DNA of 64,000 bases from a virus (IMGVR_UViG_3300037010_001749:21896-85895), one strand, 5' to 3'; shown: positions 602 through 29,645, counted from the first letter of the stretch. Notes: a model not told the origin generated them from the sequence alone. Numbers and translations are program-made.

Positions 602-948
602 AGTGCGGCTTGCTCCATGAAGATATTTCCTTTGGCTAGGTTAGCCGCCATCGGCAGCACTCGCAAGTTGTAGTGAACGTGCAGGCCGCAGACCAGATCG
701 CCTTTGAGCGGGATGATGTGATCCACGCTGTGTAGCGTGCCTGTCTCTTTGGTGAGACGCTTAGCGTCTCTGTAGAGCCTACGGATCAGGGCTTTATCGG
801 CCCAAGGCGGTGTCGCCATCTTCACCTTCAGCCGGTAGACTTTTCCGCGGAAGTTCCCTCGGCTGATGCGCAGTGGGCACCCAGGCCTGAATAACGGTCC
901 TGGGTGCTGTCCATCAAGCTGCAGCGATAGCTGTTCTGCTCTTGGCAC
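316..948 (-). CDS. HNH endonuclease (start and C-terminal extension uncertain)
   Basis: ATPPWAD...HSVDHIIPLKGDLVCGLHVHYNLRVL...N..KGN. Confidence 0.85.
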   Translation of the reverse strand: MPRAEQLSLQLDGQHPGPLFRPGCPLRISRGNFRGKVYRLKVKMATPPWADKALIRRLYRDAKRLTKETGTLHSVDHIIPLKGDLVCGLHVHYNLRVLPMAANLAKGNIFMEQAALWPTSTAAADAEHATPSSTPCSGTGENASAGTAVMTAFTSILSVSIAYLAGVPGPTSGGHTERAQPSVTSTLKARPTEQFEPGKTKAQLPGWACD

Positions 949-7982: not shown

Positions 7983-10937
7983 CTAAGCTTTGAAAGGTTC
8001 AACCCCCATTCTTGCAAGCTCGTCTAGGTCGAAGATGAACGCTCCGCCTGGGATGTTCAGTTCCTGGCCAGGCCCATGGGAGATGAGCGCAGGGCAGTCC
8101 TTCAAGCCATGGAGAAAGGCATGGTCGCCAGGAAAGAGCGGCCGTTCAGAGGTCGACCGGCAGTAGGCGCGGTAGCGGTGATAGATCGCCCGGGCCGACA
8201 GCTCAATGACGGTCTTGCCGTTCACCGTTGCGTAGGCGTACTCCTGCTTCAGGCGCACCGCCATCGGCGATGAAGGGTCAAGGCTGACCGACATCGTGGC
8301 CACCTTGTTCAGCACCTTGATCCACTCAGCTTGAGTGGAGGGCAGCAGGTCGGACATGCGGTCGTAGACCGAAGCCTCCAGCTCGTCGAACTTCGCGTCG
8401 AACTCCTTGTCAAAGATGTCAGCAACCAGTTTGCGGAACCTCTGCAAGCCGAAGCGCACCACCGTGTAGTTGAACACCGTGCGCTCCTTGGCGCCCTGCT
8501 TGGCTTGCAGTTCCTGGTCCGACAGGCCGGCAACCAGGTCCTTCTCGTTGAGCATGTACTTGGCCTGGGCCGCATCGAGCAAGGCGTCGAACTCGGTGGT
8601 CAGCTTTTCGAAGCTGTAGTCGAGCACGATGTCGGAGGCCAGGTAGTGCCCAAGAGAAGACAGCACACGCTTGTGGCGCTCCGCGATATGGAAGCGGGTG
8701 CTCCACTTCATGGCCACACTGGCCGGTGGTCTCACCACTGTGCAGAGTACCACCCGCTCCATGACCGCAGCTTCCTCTTCGGCTGCTTCGGCGATCACCA
8801 CCATCGGTGCAGCAAGCTGTGTGGTGTAGAGCGCTCGGTAGTCGTCGTTGTCCCGAGTGCCACCGCCCCGGGTGACGTCCCGGCAGTTGTAGGCATCCCG
8901 CATCATGAGCTTGAGCTTGCCGTGGATCTCAGTCGGCATCTCGTGTGGCTTGTACTCGTCGATGATGAGAGGAATCGAGGCCGATCCGGCCAAGTGCTGC
9001 TGCAGGGCGAAGAGCGTGGAGCCAGGGGTCAGTGTCTTCGCCTCCTGCTGGTAGAAGAACAAGGACATCAGCATCCTGTTCATCTCGGTCTTGCCAGCGC
9101 CTGCTGCGCCGTTGACGTGCAGAATCGGGAACTTGGTGTAGACCTTGTGGAACAGCATGCGGTAGAAGCTGGCGGTGTACCAGCCCACCAGCTTGGCGAT
9201 CACGTTCGGCTGCTGGCAGCCCAGGAAGTTCTCCAGCACAACACGCAGCGTCTGCTTATTGTCTGCAGACTCTATCCAGTCGACCAGCTTGGGCGCGTCG
9301 CTGATGTCTGTCCGGAAAGACCCACGGGGATCAGGGTAGCCCTGGAAAGAGAACTCGTAGCCCTTGGCCGCGATCCGCGGCTCGAGCACCACACCTTTGC
9401 CGTCAGCCCAGACCATGAAGGGCTCGCGCATCTCAGGGTCTGTGTGGTTGACGATGTTGATGATGTCCAAGCCCTCACGGTTCAGGACGTACAACTCCTT
9501 GCCCTCCTTGCGGCCCTTTTCTGCGACTCGCATCATCATCCCTCTCACGTGTTGATCGCTTCCCTGCAGGGCATGCGAATGGCGGCTGGCGAACTTGTTG
9601 AAAGCCTGCAGGCCGCCGAAGATGTCAAGCTCCAGGGTCTGTCGGCCTTGCGGCTTGCCGTTGATGAGCACGTCGGCCTCGTAGCAGGAGACTTGCCCCG
9701 TCTGTGGTGAGCGCAGAATGTGGACCTTGTCAAACGAGATCGCGCAAACGCGCTTCTTCCCTTCCTCGGTGTTGGCGTACAGGCCGTACTTCGTCAACTG
9801 CACACTTGCGGCAACATCGGAGTACTCGTCCAGAGCTTCCTCTGTTGCCTGGCTGTCTGGGGCTGTGCCGTCCTCAGCCTTCTTGATATTCTCTTCGACC
9901 TCGGCCTTGCTGACCGGGATGCCATCCAAGTCCGGCGCGTCGTGGTTGAGCAAGGACTTGAGTCCACCGATCGAGAACTCGTAGCACGGGTTCCCTTCGA
10001 TGTACCGGTGCATGCGAATCAACTCAGCCCGGCGCTTCTCCGGCGTGTTGTACCGATGGCCGTCGCTGCTGTGCACGCTGCAAAGGCCCTCAGCCTTCTC
10101 TGCAAGCTGCTGCTCAGTCCAGCCCATAGCCTCGGACACGATGGCAAGCTGCAGCGCGATGGGGTGGAAGCCTGCGTCCGACTTGACTCCCCGGCCTTCC
10201 AGCAGCGCCTGCAAAGATGGCAGGTCGGTCTTCCTCAGCACTGAAGGGTCGGTGTTCTTCTTCTTCCGCTTGGCCAGCCGGTCAGCCACGTCCTGCTGCG
10301 CCTTGTCGAACATGACCATCAACTCCATGCAGAGCTTCGGAGTCTGCGCAGCAGGCAACAGCCGCGGTTCTGCGGTCAGCACGCTGTAGGACTCAACGGT
10401 GACGCCCTGCAGTTCCTCGTAGGTGATAGGCACTTTGTAGTGCCCGTTCTCCCGCTTGACACCCGGTGAACGCCACATACGGCCGCGGCCGCCGGAGTAG
10501 ACCCGAAAGTCCAGGTGGTCAACGGCAAGTGCAAAGGCCAGCTGCTTGTAGACCGTGGGCAGGTACTGCACGCCCTCCTTCGGGATCTTGGCCATGAAGC
10601 AGGCCATGGGGATCTCCAGGTGAAAGCCCCGGCCGCCCGTGGCGTACAGCTGGGCGCTGCCCATGTCGAAGCCCTTCTCCTCGAGCATCAGACAGAGCTT
10701 ATGCACGTCCTCCGAGACGGCGACCATGTCGGTCCCGTCCCAGTCGAAGTACAGCGGGCCGCTGTACTTGAGCTTGTGCCGATCTTCGCTCGGCAGTTCG
10801 TCGGCCAGCTGGCTGACTGCCAACACCGTGAAGAACGCCGGATGCTTCTCTTCGGTGAGTTGAGCCTGGTAGGCGAGCGGGCACGGCTTCCACGTTTCCT
10901 CTCCGCCCGTCTCCTGGTAGTACCTGTATTTGCTCAT
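7983..10937 (-). CDS. AEP-type primase fused to a P-loop ATPase/helicase domain
   Basis: YFDWDG, TGGRGFHL (AEP motifs I and II); GAAGAGKTE, IIDEYK (Walker A and B). Confidence 0.88.
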   Translation of the reverse strand: MSKYRYYQETGGEETWKPCPLAYQAQLTEEKHPAFFTVLAVSQLADELPSEDRHKLKYSGPLYFDWDGTDMVAVSEDVHKLCLMLEEKGFDMGSAQLYATGGRGFHLEIPMACFMAKIPKEGVQYLPTVYKQLAFALAVDHLDFRVYSGGRGRMWRSPGVKRENGHYKVPITYEELQGVTVESYSVLTAEPRLLPAAQTPKLCMELMVMFDKAQQDVADRLAKRKKKNTDPSVLRKTDLPSLQALLEGRGVKSDAGFHPIALQLAIVSEAMGWTEQQLAEKAEGLCSVHSSDGHRYNTPEKRRAELIRMHRYIEGNPCYEFSIGGLKSLLNHDAPDLDGIPVSKAEVEENIKKAEDGTAPDSQATEEALDEYSDVAASVQLTKYGLYANTEEGKKRVCAISFDKVHILRSPQTGQVSCYEADVLINGKPQGRQTLELDIFGGLQAFNKFASRHSHALQGSDQHVRGMMMRVAEKGRKEGKELYVLNREGLDIINIVNHTDPEMREPFMVWADGKGVVLEPRIAAKGYEFSFQGYPDPRGSFRTDISDAPKLVDWIESADNKQTLRVVLENFLGCQQPNVIAKLVGWYTASFYRMLFHKVYTKFPILHVNGAAGAGKTEMNRMLMSLFFYQQEAKTLTPGSTLFALQQHLAGSASIPLIIDEYKPHEMPTEIHGKLKLMMRDAYNCRDVTRGGGTRDNDDYRALYTTQLAAPMVVIAEAAEEEAAVMERVVLCTVVRPPASVAMKWSTRFHIAERHKRVLSSLGHYLASDIVLDYSFEKLTTEFDALLDAAQAKYMLNEKDLVAGLSDQELQAKQGAKERTVFNYTVVRFGLQRFRKLVADIFDKEFDAKFDELEASVYDRMSDLLPSTQAEWIKVLNKVATMSVSLDPSSPMAVRLKQEYAYATVNGKTVIELSARAIYHRYRAYCRSTSERPLFPGDHAFLHGLKDCPALISHGPGQELNIPGGAFIFDLDELARMGVEPFKA

Positions 10938-10951
10938 GGTCCTTCTTGGGG

Positions 10952-12385
10952 CTAGCGGCCGTGGATCGCATCACGCAGATCTTTGAAGCCACCTTGAACT
11001 TTGTTCGCAAGGGCGTCGTTGTGCAGCAGGTTCTGGTGGAGCCTTACCTGGATGGTGTCTTGAGCGATCGCTAGCCGGATGTTGGGCACATAGAGTTGCC
11101 CATCACGGGCCACTCGGCCCACACCTTGAACGAACGGCCAAGGAACCACGGGTTCCTCAATCCACAGAACTTCCTTGCACACGTGCTGAGGGTTCCAGCC
11201 TGCCCCACCGGACCCCGGCTGGGCGATGATGGCCCGGCATTTCGGGTCGTCGAGAAAGCGGGCGATGTTACGCGCCTGCTGCGCTCCTGACACCTCTGAG
11301 TAGCAGGCTACCGTGTCGTACTTGGCCATGAACTTCGTCACAGCGCGGCTCGTCATGATGTAGTAGGTGAAGATGATGAGCTTGCTAGCTGCGGGGTTGA
11401 GCAAGTCGATCTCGTCAGCAACTGCCTCGATCAGGTCGAAGACCGCTGGCACGCACTTCTCGTCTCCGCTGAAGTGTGACCAGTTGCAGATGATCTGCTG
11501 CGACGCGTTGTACAGACGGCCGGCTGACGTGGCGTCGATCTTGCCACCGTCCGGGAGCAACAGAAGCTGCTCGTCGACCAGCTGGTTGTATAGGCCCAGG
11601 TGCTCCGGAGCCAGGTCGTAGTGGATCGGGATGTAGTTTGGCTGCTTGAGATCCTTCAGCACATCGCCGCTCAGCCGGCGTGACGCCTGCAGCATCAGGT
11701 TGCTCTGCATCATCTCCAGGTTCTGCCACTCCTTGACGTTGCCGAAGAAGTCACGATCTGCCACGTGCAGGTTCTCAAAATGCGCCTGGCTTCGGTACAC
11801 GCTCGGGGTCTTCAGCTTCACGTAGCCGTAGGCGTCACCAGGTGACGAGATGGGAGTGCCTGTCAAGACCTGCAGCTTCTCACCCTCAGAGAACTCCTTC
11901 ACAGCCTTGTAGTTGGCCGTGCCTACGTTCTTGACCGAGTGGCCCTCGTCCACCGTGAGGTTTTTGCTACGCCCTTGAAGCTGGCGTTGGATGTGAGGCA
12001 AGTCGCTCTTGAACATCTGGATCGACGTGAGGATCCACTTGTACGCCTGCAGGTTGATCGCCTGCCGCTTCACAGGTGCGCCGCGGTAGGCCACGACCGC
12101 ACCGACGTCGTGCAGCGACTCGAGCCAGCGCTTCCACTGAGGCACCAGGATAGGAGGCATCAGGACGATGTTGTGGGCACAGTCCCAGGCCAGGCTCAGG
12201 ACTGTGCTCGTGGCGGTCTTGCCTGTGCCCACCTCGTTGAACAGGCCGACGCGGTCGAACGGGTAAAGCTCCTCCACGTCTTCGACCTGGTCAGCGCGGA
12301 GTTCGAAAGGGATCTGGTGGTACTTGAGCAGATCTCCGAGGTTGTCAAAGTCAGGCACGCTTCGGCACCTTGGGTAGTGTGGCAA
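10952..12385 (-). CDS. SNF2-family helicase
   Basis: EVGTGKT, VDEGH, LTGTP, QGVGRVARDGQ. Confidence 0.9.
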   Translation of the reverse strand: MPHYPRCRSVPDFDNLGDLLKYHQIPFELRADQVEDVEELYPFDRVGLFNEVGTGKTATSTVLSLAWDCAHNIVLMPPILVPQWKRWLESLHDVGAVVAYRGAPVKRQAINLQAYKWILTSIQMFKSDLPHIQRQLQGRSKNLTVDEGHSVKNVGTANYKAVKEFSEGEKLQVLTGTPISSPGDAYGYVKLKTPSVYRSQAHFENLHVADRDFFGNVKEWQNLEMMQSNLMLQASRRLSGDVLKDLKQPNYIPIHYDLAPEHLGLYNQLVDEQLLLLPDGGKIDATSAGRLYNASQQIICNWSHFSGDEKCVPAVFDLIEAVADEIDLLNPAASKLIIFTYYIMTSRAVTKFMAKYDTVACYSEVSGAQQARNIARFLDDPKCRAIIAQPGSGGAGWNPQHVCKEVLWIEEPVVPWPFVQGVGRVARDGQLYVPNIRLAIAQDTIQVRLHQNLLHNDALANKVQGGFKDLRDAIHGR

Positions 12386-21822: not shown

Positions 21823-22115
21823 GCTTCGAACCCCGCCTGGAAGCCGAAGTAGGCGATGTCCACGTGGCCACGGCTGCAGAAGACCATGTCGAAGTCGCAG
21901 GGATTGACGAGGCCTTCGATGTACCCCTGCGCCTTCCGGTCTTCGCGCCAGGCTTTGGCCACTTCAGCCCGCGCCTTCTTCAGTGCAGCCAAGGCCTCGG
22001 TGTAGTTGTCGCCAGCCGGCACAGACACCAGTGCCACATGGAAGGGCCAGGCGTGCACCCAGTCGGGCGGGAACCTGTAGTGGAGCACCACCGTCCAGGG
22101 CTTGCTGGCCCTCAC
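21819..22115 (-). CDS. Hypothetical protein
   Basis: GTGA coupling. Confidence 0.55.
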   Translation of the reverse strand: MRASKPWTVVLHYRFPPDWVHAWPFHVALVSVPAGDNYTEALAALKKARAEVAKAWREDRKAQGYIEGLVNPCDFDMVFCSRGHVDIAYFGFQAGFEA

Positions 22116-22305
22116 GACAGCGTCTCCGACTTAGCCTCTTCACCCAGGGCGCGCAACGTGGTGGCCAGCAAGGTACTGGCACGGATCGGGCTCATGCCCG
22201 AGGCGATGAGCAGGCGCTTCGCGTCCTGCATGGCCTGCAGCCCCTGTAGATTGGTCTGGCGCACGGCACTGCTGAAGGTGCGGATGATTTCGTGTTCGAT
22301 ATCGT

Positions 22306-22542
22306 TCAAACGTCTTCCTTAGGGTTGGGGAAAGGCTTGCGCTCCAAGGGGAACGAGGCTAGTCGGATCTGGCCCATGCCCTTGCGAATGTAAATATGCT
22401 GGCGGTGATCAAAACGAAAGGCCAGCATGTCACTGGCCAGGTTGGCCTTCAGGATCGCCAAGTCTTCGGTGTGATAGAACGCCCATCGGGCGGCCTTGAT
22501 GGCGCGGCCAAGGTCGCGCCAGGTCTAGCGCAGCGGGGTCAC
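22306..22542 (-). pseudogene. Small ORF with an in-frame TAG at codon 6
   Basis: Coupled GTG start, TAG at 22525-22527, frame open afterwards to TGA at 22306. Confidence 0.45.
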
Positions 22543-22700
22543 CCCACCACCGCCATGTCGCGCTCGCAAGTATTGAACTCCAGCCCGTGCTCCACGGCTA
22601 GGTCTTCGGCCTTCTGCAGAGCATCCTGCTCCGACTCGGCTTCGATTTCCACCATCGTGGCGTACGTCTCCGTGACGGCCACTTTGTACATTTTGGTCAT
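22539..22700 (-). CDS. Small acidic protein, 53 aa
   Basis: MTKMYKVAVTETYATMVEIEAESEQDALQKA. Confidence 0.6.
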   Translation of the reverse strand: MTKMYKVAVTETYATMVEIEAESEQDALQKAEDLAVEHGLEFNTCERDMAVVG

Positions 22701-22715: not shown

Positions 22716-22733
22716 TTAGCTCGAACGTTATGC
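22716..22733 (+). other. Truncated attC (L'/R' half), left edge of the array
   Basis: TTAGCTCGAAC GTTATGC; 22716-22737 is identical to 25019-25040. Confidence 0.8.
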
Positions 22734-22849
22734 GCCTGTCTCGGAATGGGTGAGCTTCACCGCATGCCAAGTGCCTAAAACCTCGTCTGCCGCCGTCAGC
22801 CAGTCTTGCGGCAGCGGGTGCGCTTCAGCAGGGCCAGCGCAGCGGCACC

Positions 22850-23563
22850 CTACTCCACCGGGTTCACTGCGCTTCGCGCAATCTCAATGAGCAAGTCTCG
22901 GAACTCAGGCGGTGTACCGTTGCGGATCGCAGTCTTATCCTTGCCGCCCACCATCGCCATCATTCCAATGCGCCGCGCTTTCGCGTATCCGGGCAACTCC
23001 ACGGCGCGCGGGTGTAGCCGCTGCGGTGTCTTGCCCCAGCGCAGTTCGGGCAGCAGGCGCTTTTGCACGCCAGCCACAAGCAGCCATGTTCCTTTGCCGG
23101 CAAGGTGCCCGTAGTGGCCTTGGTACACGCAGCACGTCCACAAGCCTGGCGCGGCCTCAACCCACCCACCTTTGCGCGGCGGCTTCTTCAGCCTGAAGTA
23201 CGCCCACGCATGCGAGTCCATCGGGTGTTCAAGCACGCCACCGTTCAGACGCAGCGCCGCCAGTGCGGTAGCAAAACACCCATCGTCGGCGCCCAGCTTG
23301 TACTGGTGCGGCTTGCGCGTGCTGCCGTGCCAGAACCTGCCCCAGCGCTGGCAGGGCAGGTGCGCCACTACCGGGTGCGGGCCTGCATAGGTACGGGCAT
23401 CGCGGGCTTGGTCCCACGGGTCAACGCCCGGCACGCCTACATAGCAGCCCTTCGGCTCAACGTAGAGGGCCGCCACCGTACGGAAGCTCTCCACCTGGCG
23501 CATAACCCCTCGCACAAGCTGAGAGCCAACGGCGGGTGTAATGGGTGCTTCAGGTTTGGTCAT
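22850..23563 (-). CDS. Cassette ORF: divergent C5 DNA methyltransferase-like protein
   Basis: VAALYV..., VVAHLPCQRWG (PC motif), VLEHP; start codon inside attC. Confidence 0.55.
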   Translation of the reverse strand: MTKPEAPITPAVGSQLVRGVMRQVESFRTVAALYVEPKGCYVGVPGVDPWDQARDARTYAGPHPVVAHLPCQRWGRFWHGSTRKPHQYKLGADDGCFATALAALRLNGGVLEHPMDSHAWAYFRLKKPPRKGGWVEAAPGLWTCCVYQGHYGHLAGKGTWLLVAGVQKRLLPELRWGKTPQRLHPRAVELPGYAKARRIGMMAMVGGKDKTAIRNGTPPEFRDLLIEIARSAVNPVE

Positions 23564-23596
23564 GCCGTTGGTTCCAGCTTTGCTTGGTCATTAGGC
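23500..23596 (+). other. attC type A (97 bp), R' core mutated GTT>ATT
   Basis: GCATAAC CCCTC GCACAAGC...GCTTTGC TTGGTC ATTAGGC. Confidence 0.85.
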
Positions 23597-23784
23597 GGCT
23601 TGCGCAACTCGAACATCACAACCCGCCGCAGACCCAGGCGCCGCAGGTAGTCGGCGCTCGGGTTCACCTTCTCGCCATCACGCAGCCGCGACAGGTAGCC
23701 GCAGTCAATCTCGGTCACGCGGGCCACGGCGCGCAGGCTGCCGTGCTGCGAGACGAGTTGGTCAATGCGCTCTGCCAGCGTCAT
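23560..23784 (-). CDS. Cassette ORF: XRE-like HTH protein
   Basis: GSLRAVARVTEIDCGYLSRLRDGEKVNPS. Confidence 0.8.
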   Translation of the reverse strand: MTLAERIDQLVSQHGSLRAVARVTEIDCGYLSRLRDGEKVNPSADYLRRLGLRRVVMFELRKPPNDQAKLEPTA

Positions 23785-24125
23785 GACTGATACCCGGCCA
23801 GCGCGTTGGCTAGCGCGGCATCCGCTTCGCCGAGAAAATCGTCCGGCACAATGAACGACACCCACGCGGGAGCGTTCGGCGTTGCTGGATGCCTCGCGTA
23901 TTGCAAGAGCGTCGCAAGCAGCACGGCACAGCGCTTCGGCGCAGCCCGCACCAGCACTGCAAACCGCTCCAGGTGCTCCTGCGTCACGCCGTGGCAGCCT
24001 TCGCTGTACACGCACGAACCGCTGCCGTGGTTCAGCACGTTCACCATTCCAGCAGCCTCCACCAGCGGGCCTAACCCCTCTGTCGAGCCGAGTGCCAACG
24101 GCTGGCTGGTTTTGGTAGTGTTCAT
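23781..24125 (-). CDS. Cassette ORF: hypothetical protein
   Basis: AAGGAG RBS and ATG lie in the attC loop. Confidence 0.75.
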   Translation of the reverse strand: MNTTKTSQPLALGSTEGLGPLVEAAGMVNVLNHGSGSCVYSEGCHGVTQEHLERFAVLVRAAPKRCAVLLATLLQYARHPATPNAPAWVSFIVPDDFLGEADAALANALAGYQS

Positions 24126-24173
24126 CGTTGCTTCTCCTTGGCCGTTGTCACCGGCTCAACTCCAACGTTAGGC
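24069..24173 (+). other. attC type B (105 bp)
   Basis: GCCTAAC CCCTC TGTCGAGC...GCTCAAC TCCAAC GTTAGGC. Confidence 0.9.
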
Positions 24174-24174
24174 C

Positions 24175-24468
24175 TCACACCAGCCACGATGCAGCGGCAG
24201 CTTGGCGAGAGGCTGTGTCGCGTGCCTTGATGCCCGCCAACAAGTCGGCGGCCAGCAGCGGGTATTCGGCGGCGCACGATTCTACGTATGCGCGCAGGGC
24301 CGCCGCAGCGTGCTTATCATGCGTCAGGTCCAGCACAAAGTAAACGCAGCCGCAGTGCTTGCCGCCCGGCGCGCTACTGCCGTCCGTTCGCGTCACGTTG
24401 AATCTGCTGTACAGCCCACGATTCCTGTCACAGGGCATTGGCTCGCCGCACAGTTCACACTTGCTCAT
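24175..24468 (-). CDS. Cassette ORF: conserved phage protein (alternative GTG start at 24549 within attC)
   Basis: GLY..F.V.RTDG....GGKH..C.YFVLDL.HD.HA..AL.AY. Confidence 0.8.
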   Translation of the reverse strand: MSKCELCGEPMPCDRNRGLYSRFNVTRTDGSSAPGGKHCGCVYFVLDLTHDKHAAAALRAYVESCAAEYPLLAADLLAGIKARDTASRQAAAASWLV

Positions 24469-24491
24469 GCTTTTCCTCGCTCCGGCACCAG

Positions 24492-24592
24492 GCCGAACCA
24501 TTCGCACAAGCTGCGCCCCAACGGCGGGGCACAGCAACTCGGTAGGCACCGCCTGCGCGGCCGTTGGTGCCAGCTTTCCTCAATCGTTAGCC
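24492..24592 (+). other. attC (101 bp)
   Basis: GCCGAAC CATTC GCACAAGC...GCTTTCC TCAATC GTTAGCC. Confidence 0.88.
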
Positions 24593-24605
24593 AGCGCCAA
24601 AACCA

Positions 24606-24926
24606 TCACGCCGGCTCGTAGGTGGCTGCGAAGATGTCCGGTTTGCATGGATAGTGCTCGCCGGCCACGCCGCGAATGATCCAGTCGCCTGGGCTAGCGA
24701 CATGCTGGCCTTCAAGCGTCGGAACCATGATGTTGTTGTTGTGCCATTGCGCCAGCTCGCGCCCGATGGCGTGCTGTCCCTCGTTGATCCAGAGAATCAG
24801 CGCATAGCTACTTCCGTCGTTGCGGAACTGGCGTGCTTCAATCACGATAGGTTTCTTCCTGAAGCGCGTTGTCTGTTCGGTTGTTGCCGCGTCCAGCTCA
24901 TGGCCGGCGCTGAGAAATGTTTGCAT
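24606..24926 (-). CDS. Cassette ORF: PGDYG-like conserved phage protein
   Basis: FRKKP.VIEA.QF...TLEG...ASPGDWIIRGV.GE.YPCKPDIF..TYE. Confidence 0.85.
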   Translation of the reverse strand: MQTFLSAGHELDAATTEQTTRFRKKPIVIEARQFRNDGSSYALILWINEGQHAIGRELAQWHNNNIMVPTLEGQHVASPGDWIIRGVAGEHYPCKPDIFAATYEPA

Positions 24927-24966
24927 GACGGTTCCTTCTGTGTTGTGCCAGCATGGGTCGGGCGCT

Positions 24967-25036
24967 GGCTAACCCCTCGCTCAAGCGGATTTGCCACGGA
25001 GTACCATGTCAAACGCGCTTAGCTCGAACGTTATGC
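24967..25036 (+). other. attC type C (70 bp)
   Basis: GGCTAAC CCCTC GCTCAAGC...GCTTAGC TCGAAC GTTATGC; canonical extra base in L''. Confidence 0.93.
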
Positions 25037-25635
25037 GCCTTGAGGCACGCCACCATTTGCCGCGCCGACTGTCTCGCGTCCATCAACGGGTGGTGCGCCG
25101 GTAGTTCGTCCGGCAAGCGCTCGGTCAGTTCCAGCGCGTTGCCGCCCAGCGCCAGGATCACGCTTGCCAAGTCGTGCAGCGGGTACGGGCCTTGCCACTC
25201 GCGCTCGGCGTGGTTCAGCTTCACGCACGCGCTCAGAAAGTTGGCTTCCACCGGCCAAGCGCAGTCAGCCACCAGCACCGCGCCCTGGTCGGCCCAGCTT
25301 CGCCACTCATGCCAAAAGTGGTTCCGCAGGTGCTGCTTCGTTGGGCTTGTCACCGGCAGCGCCGGCACATGCTCGCCCACCCACAGCCGGCTTTCGGCGG
25401 TGCCGGTGCAGTCGGCGGGGTCGCAAGCAATGCAGCCTTCGTCCAGCCGCTCGCCTTCTCGGTTCACCACTACCCAGGCCACTGCAAAGCCCTCGCCATG
25501 CAGGCCAATGCTTTCCACGTCAAACACCATAAATTTGTCCATCACCATCCTCTCGTTTCTCGCTGCAGGCGCCGTAACACCTCGCACAAGCTGAGAGCCA
25601 ACGGCGGGTGTAGTGGGTGCTTCAGGTTTGGTCAT
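25009..25635 (-). CDS. Cassette ORF: DEDD 3'-5' exonuclease-like protein
   Basis: VFDVESIG...HHPLMDARQS; starts and stops inside attC sites. Confidence 0.75.
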   Translation of the reverse strand: MTKPEAPTTPAVGSQLVRGVTAPAARNERMVMDKFMVFDVESIGLHGEGFAVAWVVVNREGERLDEGCIACDPADCTGTAESRLWVGEHVPALPVTSPTKQHLRNHFWHEWRSWADQGAVLVADCAWPVEANFLSACVKLNHAEREWQGPYPLHDLASVILALGGNALELTERLPDELPAHHPLMDARQSARQMVACLKAHNVRAKRV

Positions 25636-25668
25636 GCCGTTGGCTCCAGCTTTGCTCGATCGTTAGGC
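25572..25668 (+). other. attC type A (97 bp)
   Basis: Near-identical to 23500-23596; ends GTTAGGC. Confidence 0.9.
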
Positions 25669-25968
25669 GCTTACCGCAGGGCCAGCAGGCAGCGGCATCC
25701 AGTGCGTCACACGTCTCACCAGCGCTGGCGGCAGCGGCCAGTTGTGCTGGTCCACCTCCCACCGAGGGCCCTCACCAGTAAGCCGGAACTTCGTGATGTG
25801 CGCGTGTCCAGGAGTCAGCCGGTCAAAGACCCCGCGGCGCCACACCAGCACGGTGGCGTTGTGACTGGGCAAGCGCTCGCCAGTCGGCACCCACGCGCAT
25901 AACCCCTCACTGCAACCGAGCCCCAACGGCTGGCCCGTGCTGCTGTCATCGGTAGTTTCAGTGGTCAT
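25663..25968 (-). CDS. Cassette ORF: DUF551-like protein
   Basis: W.P..ERLP...VLV...VTHWMPLP..P. Confidence 0.85.
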   Translation of the reverse strand: MTTETTDDSSTGQPLGLGCSEGLCAWVPTGERLPSHNATVLVWRRGVFDRLTPGHAHITKFRLTGEGPRWEVDQHNWPLPPALVRRVTHWMPLPAGPAVSA

Positions 25969-26016
25969 CGTGTTTCCTCTCGTGCCGTTGTGTCCGGCTC
26001 ACCTCGAACGTTAGGG
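25897..26016 (+). other. attC (120 bp)
   Basis: GCATAAC CCCTC ACTGCAAC...GCTCACC TCGAAC GTTAGGG. Confidence 0.85.
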
Positions 26017-26184
26017 CGCAGGGCCACGCTTGCGGTTCTCGCGGCGCTGCAACTTCGCTTCCAGCGCCCTGACCTCTGGCACGTACTCCGGGCGCACATG
26101 CACTGTCACCGCAGTGCGCCCGGATTCCTTGTGGCGCTGCCGCTCGTCGGCCTTGCGCTCTGCTGCTGTTTTCGCTGGGCTCAT
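26011..26184 (-). CDS. Cassette ORF: 57-aa basic protein, possible DNA-binding or antitoxin-like
   Basis: MSPAKTAAERKADERQRHKESGRTAVTVHVRPE...; ATGA-coupled; stop is the TAA in the R' site. Confidence 0.7.
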   Translation of the reverse strand: MSPAKTAAERKADERQRHKESGRTAVTVHVRPEYVPEVRALEAKLQRRENRKRGPAP

Positions 26185-26423
26185 GCCAGCGTGGCGCCGG
26201 CCGCTAGGTAGTGCGCCAGCTCGCTGTCCGGGATCGAAACGAACCTGTAGCCCATGCGGTGCGCAGTGGAGCCATCAGGAATGGTCACAACGCTGAACGG
26301 CTCACCCTTCATTTCGGCAATCTGCTTTGCGTAGGCACGCACTGGCTCGGCCTGCGAGTGGATCGGTTCCACTTGCAGGGCTGCGCGCTGGCGCTTCAGT
26401 GTCTTGGTCATCTCAGCTTGCAT
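26181..26423 (-). CDS. Cassette ORF: hypothetical protein
   Basis: AAGGAG RBS downstream of the cassette promoter. Confidence 0.7.
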   Translation of the reverse strand: MQAEMTKTLKRQRAALQVEPIHSQAEPVRAYAKQIAEMKGEPFSVVTIPDGSTAHRMGYRFVSIPDSELAHYLAAGATLA

Positions 26424-26462
26424 CTCTTGCTCCTTCTGCTGCACTGTAGCCGCAGTGGCTAC

Positions 26463-26491
26463 AGTATCGCTCATCGTGACACGTCACGCAA
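26463..26491 (-). promoter_or_regulatory. Sigma70-like promoter with overlapping palindromic operator inside a cassette
   Basis: TTGCGT-17bp-GATACT; CGTGAC-GT-GTCACG dyad overlaps the -35 and spacer. Confidence 0.7.
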
Positions 26492-26506
26492 GCATTCTCG
26501 CGTGCG

Positions 26507-26612
26507 CCCTAACCCCTCGTTGCAACCGAGCCCCAACAGGCTGCGGTCAGTTGTGGCCTTTCGGCCTGCTTATGCACGGCCTGTTGGGGCCGGCTGAACT
26601 CGAACGTTAGGC
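26507..26612 (+). other. attC type D (106 bp)
   Basis: CCCTAAC CCCTC GTTGCAAC...GCTGAAC TCGAAC GTTAGGC. Confidence 0.92.
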
Positions 26613-26911
26613 CCTTCAATGCCGCGAGCAATCTTGCTGGCGGCATTCCGCGCGTTCACCGTCACGCCGTCAGCGTGCGTCTCGCCCCAGCGGCGGGCAA
26701 TGGCGGCGCAGCGTGCGCGCTCGGCGGCCACGGCCTTGTCAATGCGCCACTGCACATGCGCCGGGCTTGACCAATGGCCGCACTCGGCGGGGTCATCGTT
26801 TGTGCCGCAGATTGTCATGGTCAGGTATTGGCCCTCGCGCTGCGGTGGCAGCGGGCCTAACCCCTCTGTCGAGCCGAGTGCCAACGGCTGGCTGGTTTTG
26901 GTAGTGTTCAT
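26570..26911 (-). CDS. Cassette ORF: hypothetical phage protein
   Basis: AVAAERARCAAIA motif; starts and stops in attC sites. Confidence 0.75.
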   Translation of the reverse strand: MNTTKTSQPLALGSTEGLGPLPPQREGQYLTMTICGTNDDPAECGHWSSPAHVQWRIDKAVAAERARCAAIARRWGETHADGVTVNARNAASKIARGIEGPNVRVQPAPTGRA

Positions 26912-26959
26912 CGTTGCTTCTCCTTGGCCGTTGTCACCGGCTCACATCGATCGTTCGGT
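26855..26959 (+). other. attC type B (105 bp)
   Basis: Near-identical to 24069-24173; ends GTTCGGT. Confidence 0.88.
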
Positions 26960-26966
26960 GTGTTGC

Positions 26967-27197
26967 TCACCGCGAGCAACCCAAATGCTTGCCGTCGCTC
27001 GTCATGCGTGGCGTGAGTCCGCCGGCCGAAGTGCGCAGATACTGGCACCCGGTCAGCGCGTCGGTGCTGGGCACCAAGCCGCTGCGGGCGCCCCACGCGC
27101 CGGGGTCCGTGTCATCGCGCCCAATGGGCAGCAGGCCCACAACCAGCATCATGGCCACGCCAATCAGCAGGTACTTCCCGCACCAGCGGGCGAACAT
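26967..27197 (-). CDS. Cassette ORF: membrane-anchored DUF6440-like protein
   Basis: TM helix then D.TD...RSGL...TD.LTGCQYL....GGLTPR...DG. Confidence 0.75.
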   Translation of the reverse strand: MFARWCGKYLLIGVAMMLVVGLLPIGRDDTDPGAWGARSGLVPSTDALTGCQYLRTSAGGLTPRMTSDGKHLGCSR

Positions 27198-27218
27198 TTT
27201 TGCTTCTATCAACGACAC

Positions 27219-27324
27219 GCCTAACCCCTCGTTGCAACCGAGCCCCAACAGGCTGCGGTCAGTTGTGGCCTTTCGGCCTGCTTATGCACGGCCTGTTGGG
27301 GCCGGCTGAACTCGAACGTTCGGC
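27219..27324 (+). other. attC type D (106 bp)
   Basis: Near-identical to 26507-26612; ends GTTCGGC. Confidence 0.9.
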
Positions 27325-27325
27325 A

Positions 27326-27628
27326 TCAATACCGGCTTTCGAGTTTCGCCAGCGCCGCTTTGATGATCGACTGCATCACCTCATCGGTCATGTGCTTGGC
27401 CATTGCGTCCTTGATGCCGGTTTCCAGCAGCGGCGCGTAGGTGGCCAGCACTTCCTTTTCGATCAGTTCGCGCACGTACCGCTTGACGACATCATCGAAT
27501 GGGTTGTTGTAGCTCTTGGACAGTTCAGCGATGCTGCGCTGAACGGCACCCTTCACTACTTCACCGATCTGGCTGTCCATCACAGTCTTGGCGATGAACT
27601 CGTTAATTTGCTGCGGGGTCAGTTCCAT
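27326..27628 (-). CDS. Cassette ORF: helical hypothetical protein
   Basis: AAGGA RBS; fills its cassette. Confidence 0.8.
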   Translation of the reverse strand: MELTPQQINEFIAKTVMDSQIGEVVKGAVQRSIAELSKSYNNPFDDVVKRYVRELIEKEVLATYAPLLETGIKDAMAKHMTDEVMQSIIKAALAKLESRY

Positions 27629-27651
27629 GTCGTTTCCTTCTGTGCGTTGAT

Positions 27652-27756
27652 GCCGAACTGGCAGTTCAAGCAGAGCCCCAACGGCGGCCTGCTTTTGTGG
27701 TTAAAAACTCCGGCGTCCGTGGCGCCGTTGGTACCTGCTTAACCTAAACGTCAGCC
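27652..27756 (+). other. attC (105 bp), R' core GTT>GTC
   Basis: GCCGAAC TGGCA GTTCAAGC...GCTTAAC CTAAAC GTCAGCC. Confidence 0.88.
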
Positions 27757-27792
27757 GGCACCAATACCCTCGGTGCCGGCATACTCGTGTTG

Positions 27793-28071
27793 TCAGAACG
27801 TGGTGGGCTGCGCAATGCCGCGAATCAACTTCATGAAGCCCACTTGCAGGTCAGTGGCTCCCATGCTGACCCACCGCTGGTCAAGGTCCAGTGACAGCGG
27901 CCTGCCATCGGCCACAGGCGTATCGGTGCGCGTGATGTCAGGGTGTTGACGCAGTTTCGCCACAAAAGCGCCGCACTGCTCGGCCAGCGCCTTGCCCTCG
28001 TTCATCAGCGCTACTTCAGCACCGCTCAGTTGACGGTAGCCCGTCACTTTCGGTTGAATCATCGTTTCCAT
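27793..28071 (-). CDS. acb2: Cassette ORF: Acb2-family anti-CBASS cyclic oligonucleotide sponge
   Basis: KVTGYRQLS..E..LMN..K and RW..MG.TDLQ.G.M..IR.IAQP..F match the Acb2 termini; 92 aa. Confidence 0.88.
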   Translation of the reverse strand: METMIQPKVTGYRQLSGAEVALMNEGKALAEQCGAFVAKLRQHPDITRTDTPVADGRPLSLDLDQRWVSMGATDLQVGFMKLIRGIAQPTTF

Positions 28072-28111
28072 GTGGTTCCTTAAGTTGCATGCCAGCGTTG
28101 GTGCGGGTGCT

Positions 28112-28181
28112 GGCTAACCCATCGCTCAAGCGGATTTGCCACGGAGTACCAAGTCAAACGCGCTTAGCTTGAACGTTCGGT
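28112..28181 (+). other. attC type C (70 bp)
   Basis: Near-identical to 24967-25036; ends GTTCGGT. Confidence 0.92.
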
Positions 28182-28415
28182 CCGTTCATTCGCCACCGCC
28201 ACTGCATCAAGCACACCCGGCTTCATCGCCAGTTCCAGCAGGCTGCCCATCATGCGCTTGCCGTGCGCCCGGTTGGCATCCAGTAGATCGATGTACTTCT
28301 TGCGATACTGGTGAAGTTCTTCGTTTTCCTCGCGCAGCCGCTCTAGTTCGTGATGCATGTCCAGCACGTCGGCGGCCATCTGCACAGCCAGGGGCACTTT
28401 GTAGTCTCGCCTCAT
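28164..28415 (-). CDS. Cassette ORF: coiled-coil hypothetical protein
   Basis: GGAG RBS; stop inside attC. Confidence 0.75.
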   Translation of the reverse strand: MRRDYKVPLAVQMAADVLDMHHELERLREENEELHQYRKKYIDLLDANRAHGKRMMGSLLELAMKPGVLDAVAVANERTERSS

Positions 28416-28434
28416 CTCGTTTCTCCACCAACGG

Positions 28435-28470
28435 GCCTAACCCGTCGCTCAAGTTGAGAGCCAACGGCGC
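28435..28470 (+). other. Truncated attC (R''/L'' half), right edge of the array
   Basis: GCCTAAC CCGTC GCTCAAGT TGAGAGCCAACGGC; no right arm. Confidence 0.8.
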
Positions 28471-28482
28471 CAGCAGGCACCG

Positions 28483-29394
28483 TCATGCCGCCTCCTTAGC
28501 CTTGAGGAGGCCCAGTTGGTGGGCGATACCTTCGATCTCATCGAAGGCGATGTCATGGCAGCCGACCACGATATTGCCGTTGGTGCAGATCTTCGTCAAC
28601 TCGTAGTGACCCAAGGTCATGCCTACCTCGTAGTCCTTCTTGCCCTTCATGACGCGCTGGATGACCGGCCAGAGCTTCTTCGCGTCTTCGACGGGGATGC
28701 TGGCGTGGCGGCTGGTCTGGATCATGAACGACGGCAAGTCCAGCCGCAGCATCGTCGGAAGATCCCGGCTGAGCGCTGGGCTCCCACTCCGCCGCCAGGC
28801 TGTAATGGCGACGGCCTGCAGCCTCCGAAAGGCCTTGGCCTGCGACACTGCGCGGCGTTTCTCCGAGACGGCTTTCTTGGCCAGGTGCTCGCGGTGCTGC
28901 TCCGGGCTCCACGTCGCCGCATCGATCGGCTTGATACGGGCCTTGTGCTTCAGCAGCTTCGCAAACTGGTTGAAGTCGGCGGTGATCTGCGCCGCTTGGC
29001 TGAGGTAGACAGGCCGATTGCCGTCGGCCTTGGCGCGTAGGGCCTTGGCCAGCAGGTTGTCGACGAGGGCCTGAGTGCCTTCCGTGTCCGGCGCGTCGTG
29101 CTCCGGGTTCAGCACGGACACCTGCTTCAGGTGCCTGGTGGCGTGTCGTGCCTCCCAGACGTGCCTGTTTGTCGTGGAAGAATTCTTCTCCAGGTTGATG
29201 GCCACCCAGCCGCCGGGTAAGTGGCGACCGATGCAGTAGTGCTTGCCGTAGCTGTAGAAGTAGTCGCCTTCGACGAAGGCCTGGATGACGCGGCCGCCGT
29301 TCATGCCGGGACGCTCGGGCATCCGAGCTTCAGCCTGCCGTTTGTGGGCCCAGATGTGGGCCAGTTCTTCCGAGTGGTTGTACACCGTCTTCAT
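28483..29394 (-). CDS. Conserved phage early protein, 303 aa
   Basis: AH.WA...YSYG.HY.I...S.TT..H; GCH.I...EI. Confidence 0.8.
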   Translation of the reverse strand: MKTVYNHSEELAHIWAHKRQAEARMPERPGMNGGRVIQAFVEGDYFYSYGKHYCIGRHLPGGWVAINLEKNSSTTNRHVWEARHATRHLKQVSVLNPEHDAPDTEGTQALVDNLLAKALRAKADGNRPVYLSQAAQITADFNQFAKLLKHKARIKPIDAATWSPEQHREHLAKKAVSEKRRAVSQAKAFRRLQAVAITAWRRSGSPALSRDLPTMLRLDLPSFMIQTSRHASIPVEDAKKLWPVIQRVMKGKKDYEVGMTLGHYELTKICTNGNIVVGCHDIAFDEIEGIAHQLGLLKAKEAA

Positions 29395-29645
29395 GCGATG
29401 AGTCCTCGTTGTCTTGCGTACTCGACCAGATGGGGTTGCCACTCAGCTTCGCTGTTGGCTGACCGACTATTGAAGCCGGCGAGGCGTGGAGCGGTCAGGT
29501 AACCCGACTCGATCTCCTCGTTGATGGCCTCGACATCAAGGCTGAAAATCTCGCGCCCCCTCGGGGTGCTGAGGCTGGCGTATCCGTCGCCTCGTTCAAA
29601 CCACACGCTGGCCACGTACTCGTGGTCAGCGATCTTCTTTGCCAT
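29391..29645 (-). CDS. Hypothetical protein
   Basis: TAAGGAG RBS. Confidence 0.7.
   Translation of the reverse strand: MAKKIADHEYVASVWFERGDGYASLSTPRGREIFSLDVEAINEEIESGYLTAPRLAGFNSRSANSEAEWQPHLVEYARQRGLIA

What the first reader, a model, noticed from the sequence alone, without database searches (positions are those of the whole stretch)
22727..28441. Cassette ends match each other better than adjacent attC arms, a footprint of site-specific recombination
Seen: the R'' side of an attC is often complementary to the start of its own cassette rather than to its current R'. Examples: 24586 GTTAGCCAGCGCC with GGCGCTGGCTAAC (13/13); 27318 GTTCGGCATCAA with TTGATGCCGAAC (12/12); 26010 GTTAGGGCGCA with TGCGCCCTAAC (11/11); 22727 GTTATGCGCC with GGCGCATAAC (10/10); 26606 GTTAGGCCC with GGGCCTAAC (9/9); 27750 matches 11/13. 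Known: this is what is expected when a circular cassette integrates at G|TT. It argues the units were mobile as circles and are not just repeated hairpins.
Basis: partly seen in the sequence, partly recalled or inferred. Interest (0 to 1): 0.78.

Follow-up and report, generated by a model that had tools for sequence, protein, structure and literature searches.

The report
Integron cassette end-pairing in a phage
Twelve small gene units in this phage genome each begin with the mirror image of the outer arm of their own recombination hairpin, the textbook scar left when circular integron cassettes are inserted, so the units are genuine integron cassettes, although the scar itself is ordinary.

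Summary
All six quoted pairs are at the stated places. Over all 12 cassettes, own-end complementarity at positions 4-13 after GTT averages 7.25/10. The two arms of the same attC give 4.0/10 and the 132 non-own pairings give 4.44/10. None of 500,000 permutations reaches the observed sum.

The same footprint occurs in a bacterial chromosomal integron of the same attC family (66 cassettes). It also occurs in 70 cassettes of other viral contigs, and at the attI junction of two IntI-encoding viral records (11/11 nt each).

The object is an integrase-less attC array (CALIN) of 11 full and 2 half sites at 22716-28476. It lies inside a real phage contig with polymerase, primase, terminase and portal genes.

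The pairing is symmetric and cannot give polarity on its own. Polarity came from the bulged arm, from intI-adjacent arrays and from one clean G|TT-to-G|TT cassette. The + strand is the attC top strand, yet all 12 cassettes code on the - strand. The same holds in 67 of 72 viral cassettes, against 16 of 99 bacterial ones.

Phage CALINs are published (Qi 2023). This scan has already noted inverted phage arrays on other DNA.

The parts
22716..22733 (+). Half attC (attC0). Only the L'-spacer-R' end is present (right core GTTATGC at 22727-22733). The R''-L'' half is missing, and a - strand ORF (22539-22700, DpnD/PcfM-like) starts 16 nt to the left.
   Evidence: (no full-length CM match here)
22728..23590 (.). 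Cassette c1. The own-end pair is 22727-22736 against 23497-23506 (10/10). The ORF is on the - strand at 22850-23563, and the family match starts at residue 28, so the likely start is the ATG at 23503 inside the core. It includes attC1 (23500-23596), whose right core is ATTAGGC.
   Evidence: 86.7 bits; phrog_12600, 1e-60
23591..24167 (.). Cassette c2. The own-end pair is weak (6/10 at positions 4-13). Two overlapping - strand ORFs lie at 23560-24015 and 23781-24125. It includes attC2 (24069-24173).
   Evidence: (103.4 bits)
24168..24586 (.). Cassette c3. The own-end pair scores 5/10. The ORF is on the - strand at 24175-24549. It includes attC3 (24492-24592).
   Evidence: 75.7 bits; phrog_9572, 4.4e-20
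24587..25030 (.). Cassette c4. The own-end pair is 24586-24598 against 24961-24973 (13/13). The ORF is on the - strand at 24606-24926. It includes attC4 (24967-25036, short type).
   Evidence: 44.2 bits; phrog_419, 1.2e-29
25031..25662 (.). Cassette c5. The own-end pair scores 5/10, with one indel. The ORF is on the - strand at 25009-25635, and its stop lies 21 nt past the G|TT point, inside attC4. It includes attC5 (25572-25668).
   Evidence: (91 bits)
25663..26010 (.). Cassette c6. The own-end pair scores 6/10. The ORF is on the - strand at 25663-25968 and is a DUF551 protein whose ATG and ribosome-binding site lie in the loop of attC6. It includes attC6 (25897-26016).
   Evidence: 73.4 bits; DUF551, 9.7e-08, over the cut-off
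26011..26606 (.). Cassette c7. The own-end pair is 26010-26020 against 26503-26513 (11/11). Two - strand ORFs lie at 26181-26474 and 26011-26184. It includes attC7 (26507-26612).
   Evidence: (93.2 bits)
26607..26953 (.). Cassette c8. The own-end pair is 26606-26614 against 26853-26861 (9/9). The ORF is on the - strand at 26570-26911. It includes attC8 (26855-26959).
   Evidence: 105 bits; 57% relative in L019
26954..27318 (.). Cassette c9. The own-end pair scores 7/10, with mismatches at core positions 4 and 7. The ORF is on the - strand at 26967-27248, with a likely ATG at 27200. It includes attC9 (27219-27324). A homologous cassette lies in viral contig L018 beside different neighbours.
   Evidence: (94.7 bits)
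27319..27750 (.). Cassette c10. The own-end pair is 27318-27329 against 27647-27658 (12/12). The ORF is on the - strand at 27326-27628. It includes attC10 (27652-27756), whose right core is GTCAGCC.
   Evidence: (79 bits)
27751..28175 (.). Cassette c11. The own-end pair is 27750-27762 against 28106-28118 (11/13). The ORF is on the - strand at 27793-28071 and carries an Acb2/Tad1 hairpin domain. It includes attC11 (28112-28181, short type).
   Evidence: 41.2 bits; PF24729, 2.7e-12, over the cut-off
28176..28476 (.). Cassette c12 with a half attC (attC12, left core 28435-28441). The own-end pair scores 7/10. The ORF is on the - strand at 28164-28415. The R''-L'' half and part of the loop remain, and L'-R' is replaced by the 3' end of the phage gene at 28483-29442. 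A 24-codon - strand leader inside the half site is ATGA-coupled to the cassette ORF.
   Evidence: (20 bits, E 0.0013)

Best explanation
The stretch 22716-28476 is an integron-type gene-cassette array of the CALIN kind: attC sites with no integrase on the contig. It lies in the early or accessory region of a phage genome.

Each attC is an imperfect hairpin, R''-L''-loop-L'-R'. An integron integrase cuts the folded bottom strand in the AAC of R', which is G|TT on the top strand. When a circular cassette is inserted, its R' is therefore split. The G stays at the cassette's end, and TT plus the outer arm of the stem becomes the cassette's first bases. The R'' of every integrated cassette then pairs with that cassette's own start and not with the R' remnant now lying next to it, which belongs to the following cassette.

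Shown here:
- The pairing statistics.
- The attC architecture with covarying stems and two bulged bases on the R''-L'' arm.
- Membership of an attC family that lies beside intI in Burkholderiales-type chromosomes and in two viral records.
- The polarity: the + strand is the top strand.
- One cassette in related viral contigs bounded exactly G|TT to G|TT.

Inferred:
- The cassettes of this phage were assembled by an IntI supplied in trans, by the host or by a co-infecting IntI-bearing element.
- They passed through circular forms.

An unusual feature is that all 12 cassettes code on the attC bottom strand. Each gene is therefore preceded, not followed, by its own attC.
For: Pairing:
- Own 7.25/10 against 4.0 and 4.44, with 0 of 500,000 permutations reaching the sum; 11 of 11 attCs fit their own start better.
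- For the extension alone, 0 of 200,000 permutations reach the sum.
- Folding gains about 4 kcal/mol with the own start.

Architecture:
- 11 sites of 70-120 nt. AAC is invariant in all 12 left cores and GTT is present in 10 of 12 right cores.
- 19 consensus pairs, 10 of them with compensatory changes. The two bulges (columns 16 and 23) are both on the left arm.
- The covariance model finds the 11 sites plus the half site and nothing else in the 64 kb.

Family:
- The pattern occurs in at least 120 bacterial stretches, mostly Betaproteobacteria and Burkholderiales MAGs.
- 5 of 5 such genomes tested carry intI over the TIGR02249 cut-off.
- intI(-) is followed by attC(+) in G001, G002 and G004 and in viral records G012 and G018.

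Same footprint elsewhere:
- The bacterial array has it (66 cassettes).
- So do other viral arrays (70 cassettes).
- So do the attI junctions of two viral records, 11/11 nt each; 4 of 2000 shuffles give a 10-nt match.

Cassette limits: L010 and L021 share one cassette with the body 89% identical, its own attC 100%, the upstream attC 56% and the next 60 nt 47%.

Assembly: contigs of runs X1 and X2 bridge both array ends into phage DNA at an even depth of 15-18.
Against: - No integrase of any tyrosine type was found on the 85.9-kb contig, which is about 71% complete.
- Six of 12 cassettes have only a short perfect run (0-4 nt).
- Both ends of the array are half sites, which a simple series of insertions at one attC would not leave.
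- Of 4 cassettes shared between viral contigs, only 1 clearly carries its attC along and 1 does so weakly (63% against 24%). In 2, both neighbouring attC interiors differ or are only family-like.
- attC2 and attC8 are identical up to 10 nt before GTT and differ from there on, so that boundary is not at G|TT.
- Logan contigs cannot show circles or excision. The only usable joint (X3, 26012 to 26976, side 30, depth 3.7, one contig) is a weak hint.
Confidence: 0.8

Rival explanations
1. The end-pairing is an inherited relic. The cassettes were once made by integrase action elsewhere. Within phages, the [core-ORF-core] modules and the attC interiors are shuffled by homologous recombination or template switching inside the conserved attC blocks (TAAC + CCCTC, and CTCGAAC + GTT), not by IntI.
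For: - c9 and its L018 homologue share 88% identity from core to core, while both flanking attC interiors are only at background level (0.68 and 0.72, where the background 95th percentile is 0.72). In the L011/L018 pair both attC interiors score 0.38-0.39.
- attC7 and attC9 are identical from CCTAAC to GTT but are joined to unrelated ORFs.
- c4 and c11 share both ends and the attC but not the ORF.
- attC2 and attC8 diverge 10 nt before GTT.
- The array has half sites at both ends.
- There is no IntI on this contig or in 18 of 20 other viral records tested.
Against: - It does not explain why the pairing exists at all, nor why its sequence varies while staying complementary.
- L010/L021 show exact G|TT-to-G|TT limits.
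- The attI junctions in two IntI-bearing viral records carry the footprint.
- The two routes are not exclusive.
Confidence: 0.13
2. The inverted repeats flanking each ORF are kept for a function unrelated to recombination. Candidates are RNA stem formation, transcription termination, or mRNA processing between phage early genes.
For: - The genes are co-transcribed on the - strand, so the repeats are in the mRNA.
- Several attC loops carry a ribosome-binding site and an ATG.
- A leader in the half attC12 is ATGA-coupled to the next ORF.
Against: - Terminator-like sites are not enriched (10 found, 8.1 expected) and no promoter-like site was found.
- There is no Rfam match.
- The same repeats and the same footprint occur in intI-linked bacterial arrays, where the genes lie on the other strand.
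- A stem closing over a whole ORF of 250-800 nt is an unlikely RNA element.
Confidence: 0.04
3. The pairing is chance or composition, or the array is an assembly chimera between a phage and a bacterial integron.
For: - The window is G+C-rich (60-64%).
- The cores share a consensus.
- GTTRRRY is not enriched overall.
Against: - The permutation tests keep the same set of ends and only re-pair them; 0 of 500,000 reach the observed sum.
- Contigs of an independent assembler bridge both array ends at even depth.
- Pieces with 0 differences occur in runs of two other studies, X3 and X4.
- The cassette genes are phage families on the phage's coding strand.
Confidence: 0.02

Closest known systems
Gene cassettes of sedentary chromosomal integrons (IntI, attI, attC arrays), here those of Burkholderiales/Betaproteobacteria genomes such as G001, G002 and G004
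   Same: - The attC family is the same: the covariance model built on the phage sites scores 55-78 bits on 17 of the 19 sites listed beside intI in G001.
- The R''-L''-loop-L'-R' layout and the bulges on the R''-L'' arm are the same.
- The own-end footprint is the same, typically a 12-nt perfect run.
   Different: - No intI or attI is on this contig.
- The array lies in a phage.
- Genes are on the attC bottom strand in 12 of 12 cassettes, whereas 83 of 99 bacterial cassettes code on the top strand.
- Both ends of the array are half sites.
CALINs (clusters of attC sites lacking an integrase) in phage genomes, Qi, Rajabal, Ghaly, Tetu and Gillings 2023, Front Microbiol (PMC9892861; I read the abstract and section 3.4)
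   Same: - These are attC clusters without IntI inside phage genomes.
- The paper shows that five of six tested phage attCs recombine with attI1 under IntI1, with junctions at G|TT.
- Cassettes with counter-defence potential are noted there (methyltransferases).
   Different: - That paper lists 17 CALINs with a minimum of two attCs. Here there are 12 cassettes.
- The section I read does not describe own-end pairing, nor a systematic inversion of genes relative to attC.
- Supplementary tables could not be seen and may bear on orientation.
Reverse-oriented cassettes inside bacterial integrons (for example toxin-antitoxin cassettes with their own promoters; recalled, not from a call)
   Same: The gene lies on the attC bottom strand within an otherwise normal cassette. 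16 of 99 bacterial cassettes of this attC family scored that way.
   Different: In bacteria they are a minority scattered among forward cassettes. Here, and in 67 of 72 cassettes of other viral contigs, the reverse layout is the rule.

Membership tests
integron attC site | Outer inverted repeats R'' (RYYYAAC) and R' (GTTRRRY) with conserved AAC and GTT triplets | tested here: met
   AAC is present in 12 of 12 left cores and GTT in 10 of 12 right cores; the exceptions are ATT at 23590 and GTC at 27750. The full 7-mer consensus is met by 4 of 12 left and 3 of 12 right cores, and the rest deviate at 1-2 positions.
integron attC site | Inner imperfect inverted repeats L''/L' around a variable loop; total length about 57-141 bp (PMC3053210, passages read) | tested here: met
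   Lengths are 70-120 nt. There are 19 consensus pairs, 10 of them with compensatory changes.
integron attC site | Extrahelical bases on the R''-L'' arm, which mark the recombinogenic bottom strand (Nivina 2016, PMC5027507, passages read) | tested here: met
   Two bulged columns (16 and 23) lie on the left arm of the + strand and none on the right arm. This polarity agrees with the intI-adjacent arrays.
integron attC site | Recombined by an integron integrase at G|TT | not testable with these tools
   Support is indirect only: the own-end footprint and one G|TT-to-G|TT shared cassette.
integron attC site | Recognised by the curated attC model of IntegronFinder or by HattCI | not tested
   These programs are not on hand. 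Rfam holds no matching family (0 matches at E <= 0.1). A model built from the sites themselves was used instead.
CALIN (attC cluster lacking an integrase) | Two or more attC sites in series with no integron integrase nearby | tested here: met
   11 full and 2 half sites lie within 5.8 kb. There is no TIGR02249-like match on the whole 85.9-kb record, which is about 71% complete.
complete integron | intI gene and attI site next to the array | tested here: not met
   One search found none on this record. Two of 20 other viral records with the same attC family do have intI beside attCs.
canonical integron cassette | Promoterless ORF on the attC top strand, followed by its attC | tested here: not met
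   All 12 cassettes code on the - strand, which is the bottom strand. This rests on the GC3 phase, on DUF551 and Acb2/Tad1, and on three PHROG families.
canonical integron cassette | [quoted passage not shown] | tested here: met
   own 7.25/10 against 4.0 and 4.44; 0 of 500,000 permutations reach the observed sum.

The most novel reading that the evidence does not exclude
Phages of Burkholderiales-type hosts keep their own pool of integron cassettes. These use the host's attC family but are built the other way round, with the gene on the attC bottom strand and the attC ahead of the gene. The cassettes include counter-defence genes such as an Acb2/Tad1-like sponge. They would be exchanged between phages during infection by host or phage-borne IntI acting in trans. 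The reversed build would keep phage cassettes silent if a bacterial integron captured them, and bacterial cassettes silent in phage arrays. It would also put the recombinogenic strand on the coding, G-rich strand, where it may fold more readily. On this reading the end-pairing footprint is the evidence that these units really move one by one.
Probability: 0.4. Interest if true: 0.8.

Novelty: new variant of a known kind. Interest (0 to 1): 0.5.

Why it matters
Taken alone, the footprint is textbook. It only certifies that these repeats are real integron cassette boundaries and not generic intergenic hairpins.

Its value lies in where it is found. It shows that a 12-cassette, integrase-less array inside a phage was built cassette by cassette, as were dozens of similar arrays in other viral contigs. 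These arrays use the recombination-site family of the hosts' chromosomal integrons, but nearly every gene is reversed.

Bacterial integrons have recently been described as stores of anti-phage defence cassettes (preprints seen in search listings only). A mirror-image cassette system in phages, carrying at least one known counter-defence domain, would make the exchange of accessory genes between phages directly testable with standard IntI assays.

Tried and rejected
Steps that led nowhere:
- The strict GTTRRRY scan was not enriched and was useless for finding sites.
- A crude AAC...GTT palindrome scan and a faulty regular expression missed the sites.
- The first pairing test used 4 of 24 anchors that were misplaced by 1-10 nt. 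It was redone with anchors located by string search, and only one search is used.
- A GC3-GC2 strand call on bacterial cassettes was too noisy. It was replaced by a codon log-odds model trained on 19 long genes of this phage.
- The right-core index was off by one. It was redone.
- The c10 protein and the right-flank protein (28483-29442) have no relatives in viral contigs.
- The window's large terminase has no match in five other array-bearing viral records.
- The single metagenome scan with c9 gave only about 50% relatives. Three of the 5 loci have attC on the strand opposite to the gene.
- Of the 14 cassette proteins, none matched the bacterial loci held (L022-L149). Three matched viral loci.
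- Rfam gave 0 matches. The promoter and terminator scans showed no excess.
- Logan contig joints with sides of about 20 nt (eight of nine rows) were set aside as repeat or foreign joins. Stretches without cover in X3 and X4 were not interpreted.
- Eight ORFs of L009 were scanned against PHROGs. They gave a serine integrase, a methyltransferase, an HNH nuclease and a ParB-like protein, but no structural gene. That IntI-bearing record is viral only by its IMG/VR label.
- The record holding L021 was not searched for intI.

Readings considered and rejected: chance, terminators, and an assembly chimera (see the rival explanations).

Literature:
- I found no paper describing systematic gene inversion in phage attC arrays, or Acb2 in cassettes. 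This rests on searches (listings only), and on PMC9892861, of which I read the abstract and section 3.4.
- Supplements are closed and may hold orientation tables.

Full report
WHAT IS THERE

The window is bases 21896-85895 of an 85,895-base IMG/VR virus record with an estimated completeness of 71%. It is a real phage. PHROG matches identify five hallmark genes:
- DNA polymerase at 914-4345 on the - strand (2.5e-77).
- Primase at 7983-10937 on the - strand.
- Helicase at 10952-12385 on the - strand.
- Large terminase at 46537-48297 on the + strand (3.2e-83).
- Portal at 48755-50266 on the + strand.

Between the replication and packaging modules lies a run of small genes on the - strand. Within that run, 22716-28476 holds eleven complete hairpin sites of 70-120 nt and a half site at each end. 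A covariance model built from the eleven sites finds them at 41-105 bits on the + strand. It also finds the half site at 28435 at 20 bits, and nothing else in the 64 kb at E <= 1.

CHECK OF THE OBSERVATION

I anchored every right core (the G of GTT) and every left core (the C of AAC). I then compared the 10 positions after GTT with the reverse complement of the sequence before AAC:
- Own cassette pairs score 7.25/10 on average.
- The two arms of the same attC score 4.0/10.
- The 132 non-own pairings score 4.44/10.
- No re-pairing in 500,000 permutations reaches the observed sum (87 against a maximum of 86).
- In 11 of 11 complete sites the left arm fits its own cassette start better than its present right arm.

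The signal survives when the 7-bp core is left out (positions 8-13: 3.92/6 against 1.64 and 1.82; 0 of 200,000 permutations).

Each cassette was circularised in silico and the bottom strand folded with DNA parameters. This gave -27.55 kcal/mol with the own start, -23.48 as now arranged, and -23.33 with other starts.

Half of the cassettes (c2, c3, c5, c6, c9, c12) pair only moderately, with perfect runs of 0-4 nt. An earlier run of the test with some misplaced anchors is superseded.

WHAT THE SITES ARE

The sites have the attC layout. The outer cores carry AAC in 12 of 12 cases and GTT in 10 of 12. The inner stems have compensatory changes in 10 of 19 consensus pairs. Two bulged bases lie on the left arm of the + strand and none on the right arm.

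A degenerate pattern of the left half finds 21 viral contigs. It also finds at least 120 bacterial stretches, nearly all Betaproteobacteria or Burkholderiales MAGs (Rubrivivax, Hydrogenophaga, Acidovorax and others). One contig among them holds more than a hundred sites. All five bacterial genomes I tested carry an integron integrase above the TIGR02249 cut-off.

In three of these genomes, intI on the - strand is followed by attCs that the model matches on the + strand (L143 and L146; 19 sites in L230). This is the canonical divergent arrangement. The + strand of the window is therefore the attC top strand. This agrees with the rule that the extrahelical bases lie near L'' and that the bottom strand carries AAC in R' (Nivina 2016, PMC5027507, passages read).

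There is no Rfam match and no excess of promoter-like or terminator-like sites.

IS THE FOOTPRINT ORDINARY?

Yes. [quoted passage not shown] The crossover lies between G and TT (PMC3518468).

The bacterial control shows the same thing. In 66 cassettes of the intI-linked array of G001, own ends score 8.18/10 against 6.70 and 6.60. Own beats same-attC in 50 cassettes, ties in 8 and loses in 8. None of 20,000 permutations reaches the sum, and the typical perfect run is 12 nt.

Seventy cassettes in the other viral contigs behave alike: 7.50 against 5.07 and 5.28, with own better in 61, tied in 5 and worse in 4, and 0 of 20,000 permutations.

The most telling case is in two viral records that do encode IntI (426.8 and 425.4 bits). 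There the first cassette next to intI begins with an exact 11-nt reverse complement of the extended R'' of its own attC (L238:2584 and L236:2514). Only 4 of 2000 shuffles give even a 10-nt match. At that junction the left neighbour is not an attC, so insertion of a pre-formed unit at G|TT is the simplest reading.

WHAT THE FOOTPRINT CANNOT SAY

The paired segments simply flank each ORF. The same pair can therefore be read as cassette start plus R'' on either strand. The folding gain is about 4 kcal/mol under both polarities. Polarity had to come from other evidence.

Comparison of shared cassettes helps. One cassette common to L010 and L021 is 89% identical in the body and 100% identical through the attC on its right (top-strand sense). 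Identity begins at the upstream GTT core and ends after GTTA of its own right core. The upstream attC (56%) and the next cassette (47%) differ. That is a canonical G|TT-to-G|TT unit.

The picture is not uniform, however:
- The window's c9 and its homologue in L018 are 88% identical from core to core, have different neighbours, and carry attC interiors only at background similarity on both sides.
- L011/L018 behave likewise, and L001/L014 are intermediate.
- Within the window, attC7 and attC9 are identical from CCTAAC to GTT yet joined to unrelated ORFs.
- attC2 and attC8 part company 10 nt before GTT.
- c4 and c11 share both ends and the attC but not the ORF.

Exchange inside the conserved attC blocks therefore also occurs. 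This could be homologous recombination or rare recombination at R''. The footprint proves a history of cassette-wise assembly. It does not prove current activity.

THE UNUSUAL PART

Every cassette in the window codes on the - strand, which is the attC bottom strand. The evidence:
- The GC3 phase matches the - strand in all 12 cassettes.
- DUF551 is found in c6 and an Acb2/Tad1 hairpin domain in c11, both above their Pfam cut-offs.
- PHROG families are found for c1, c3 and c4.

With one codon model applied to both sets, the best ORF lies on the bottom strand in 67 of 72 cassettes of the other viral contigs. It lies on the top strand in 83 of 99 bacterial cassettes of the same attC family.

Other points about the viral arrays:
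- Two of the viral records are complete genomes with direct terminal repeats, carrying 14 and 7 sites.
- Of 20 other viral records tested, 2 encode IntI. The record of L021 was not tested.
- In those two records the cassette ORFs run toward intI.
- The c4 protein belongs to a very common phage family (582 of 592 candidate stretches confirmed). None of the 80 best loci has an attC within 2.5 kb. An ordinary phage gene is therefore packaged as a cassette here.
- No cassette protein matched the bacterial loci held.

ARRAY ENDS AND ASSEMBLY

The left end keeps only L'-R' (22716-22733). The right end keeps only R''-L'' and part of the loop (28435 to about 28476), fused to the stop of the upstream phage gene. 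A 24-codon leader there is ATGA-coupled to the c12 ORF.

Contigs from an independent assembler in runs X1 and X2 (possibly the source sample) bridge both ends into phage DNA at an even depth of 15-18. Pieces with no differences occur in two runs of other studies. The array is therefore not a chimera.

One contig in X3 joins the end of an attC6-like site directly to a c9 variant at GTT. Its short side is only 30 nt, so it is a weak hint. Joints with 20-nt sides were ignored.

MECHANISM AND VERDICT

This is most likely (0.8) a CALIN-type integron cassette array. It was assembled by integron-integrase recombination at G|TT, with the enzyme supplied in trans by the host or by IntI-bearing relatives. 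The end-pairing is the split R''/R' stem of each cassette's circular form.

Shown: the pairing, the architecture, the family link to intI, the polarity, and one exact cassette boundary. Inferred: circles, the source of the integrase, and present activity.

Rivals are a relic footprint with homologous shuffling (0.13), another function for the repeats (0.04), and chance or chimera (0.02).

NOVELTY

- The footprint is already known.
- Phage CALINs are published (Qi et al. 2023; abstract and section 3.4 read).
- The systematic reversal of genes relative to attC in phage arrays was not found in the papers I could search (listings only; supplements closed).
- This scan has noted the same kind of array on other DNA many times (308 notes in at least 264 genomes). 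Those notes were read after my own tests.

I file the object as a new variant of a known kind and the specific finding as confirmed but ordinary.

Noticed in passing
window 22716-28476; viral loci L001-L021; bacterial loci L022-L141: Genes lie on the attC bottom strand in 12 of 12 cassettes here and in 67 of 72 cassettes of other viral contigs. In bacterial arrays of the same attC family they lie on the top strand in 83 of 99 cassettes.
   Followed up: yes
L238:1501-3081 (record G018) and L236:1501-3651 (record G012): Two IMG/VR records with this attC family encode an integron integrase over the TIGR02249 cut-off. The attCs lie in canonical polarity beside it, while the cassette ORFs run toward intI. 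Eight ORFs scanned in L009 gave no structural phage gene, so the viral nature of that record rests on its label.
   Followed up: partly
window 27793-28071 (-): Cassette c11 encodes a 92-aa protein with the Acb2/Tad1 hairpin domain (PF24729, 2.7e-12). This is a family of phage sponges for defence signalling nucleotides.
   Followed up: partly
window 25897-26016, 24069-24173, 26855-26959, 28435-28476: Several attC loops carry a ribosome-binding site and an ATG on the - strand, in frame with the cassette ORF. Examples are the DUF551 protein of c6 and the loops of attC2 and attC8. The half attC12 encodes a 24-codon leader whose ATG overlaps the stop of the upstream phage gene and whose stop overlaps the ATG of c12.
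   Followed up: partly
window 26507-26612 vs 27219-27324; 24069-24173 vs 26855-26959: attC7 and attC9 are identical from CCTAAC to GTT but are attached to unrelated ORFs. attC2 and attC8 are identical from 6 nt left of the core up to 10 nt before GTT, and diverge from there on. attC interiors therefore behave as modules of their own.
   Followed up: partly
window 24586-25036 vs 27750-28181: Cassettes c4 and c11 share homologous ends (about 20 nt after GTT and about 28 nt before AAC) and the same short attC type, but their ORFs are unrelated. Position 11 of the paired ends changes on both arms (G:C to A:T), which is a compensatory change.
   Followed up: partly
window 24606-24926 (-); loci L150-L229: The c4 protein belongs to a very widespread phage family (582 of 592 candidate stretches confirmed). 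None of the 80 best loci has an attC within 2.5 kb.
   Followed up: yes
window 25009-25030: The c5 ORF runs 21 nt past the G|TT point and stops inside the L' box of the neighbouring attC4. Its last 7 codons would therefore change with its neighbour.
   Followed up: no
window 22112-22700 (-): Small - strand ORFs lie directly left of the array. The one at 22539-22700 has a DpnD/PcfM-like match (4.9e-06, over the cut-off), and its ATG is 16 nt from the half attC0.
   Followed up: no
records G006 (L002) and G009 (L019): Two complete phage genomes with direct terminal repeats (35.9 and 40.3 kb) carry 14 and 7 attC sites of this family. Neither has an IntI-like gene.
   Followed up: partly
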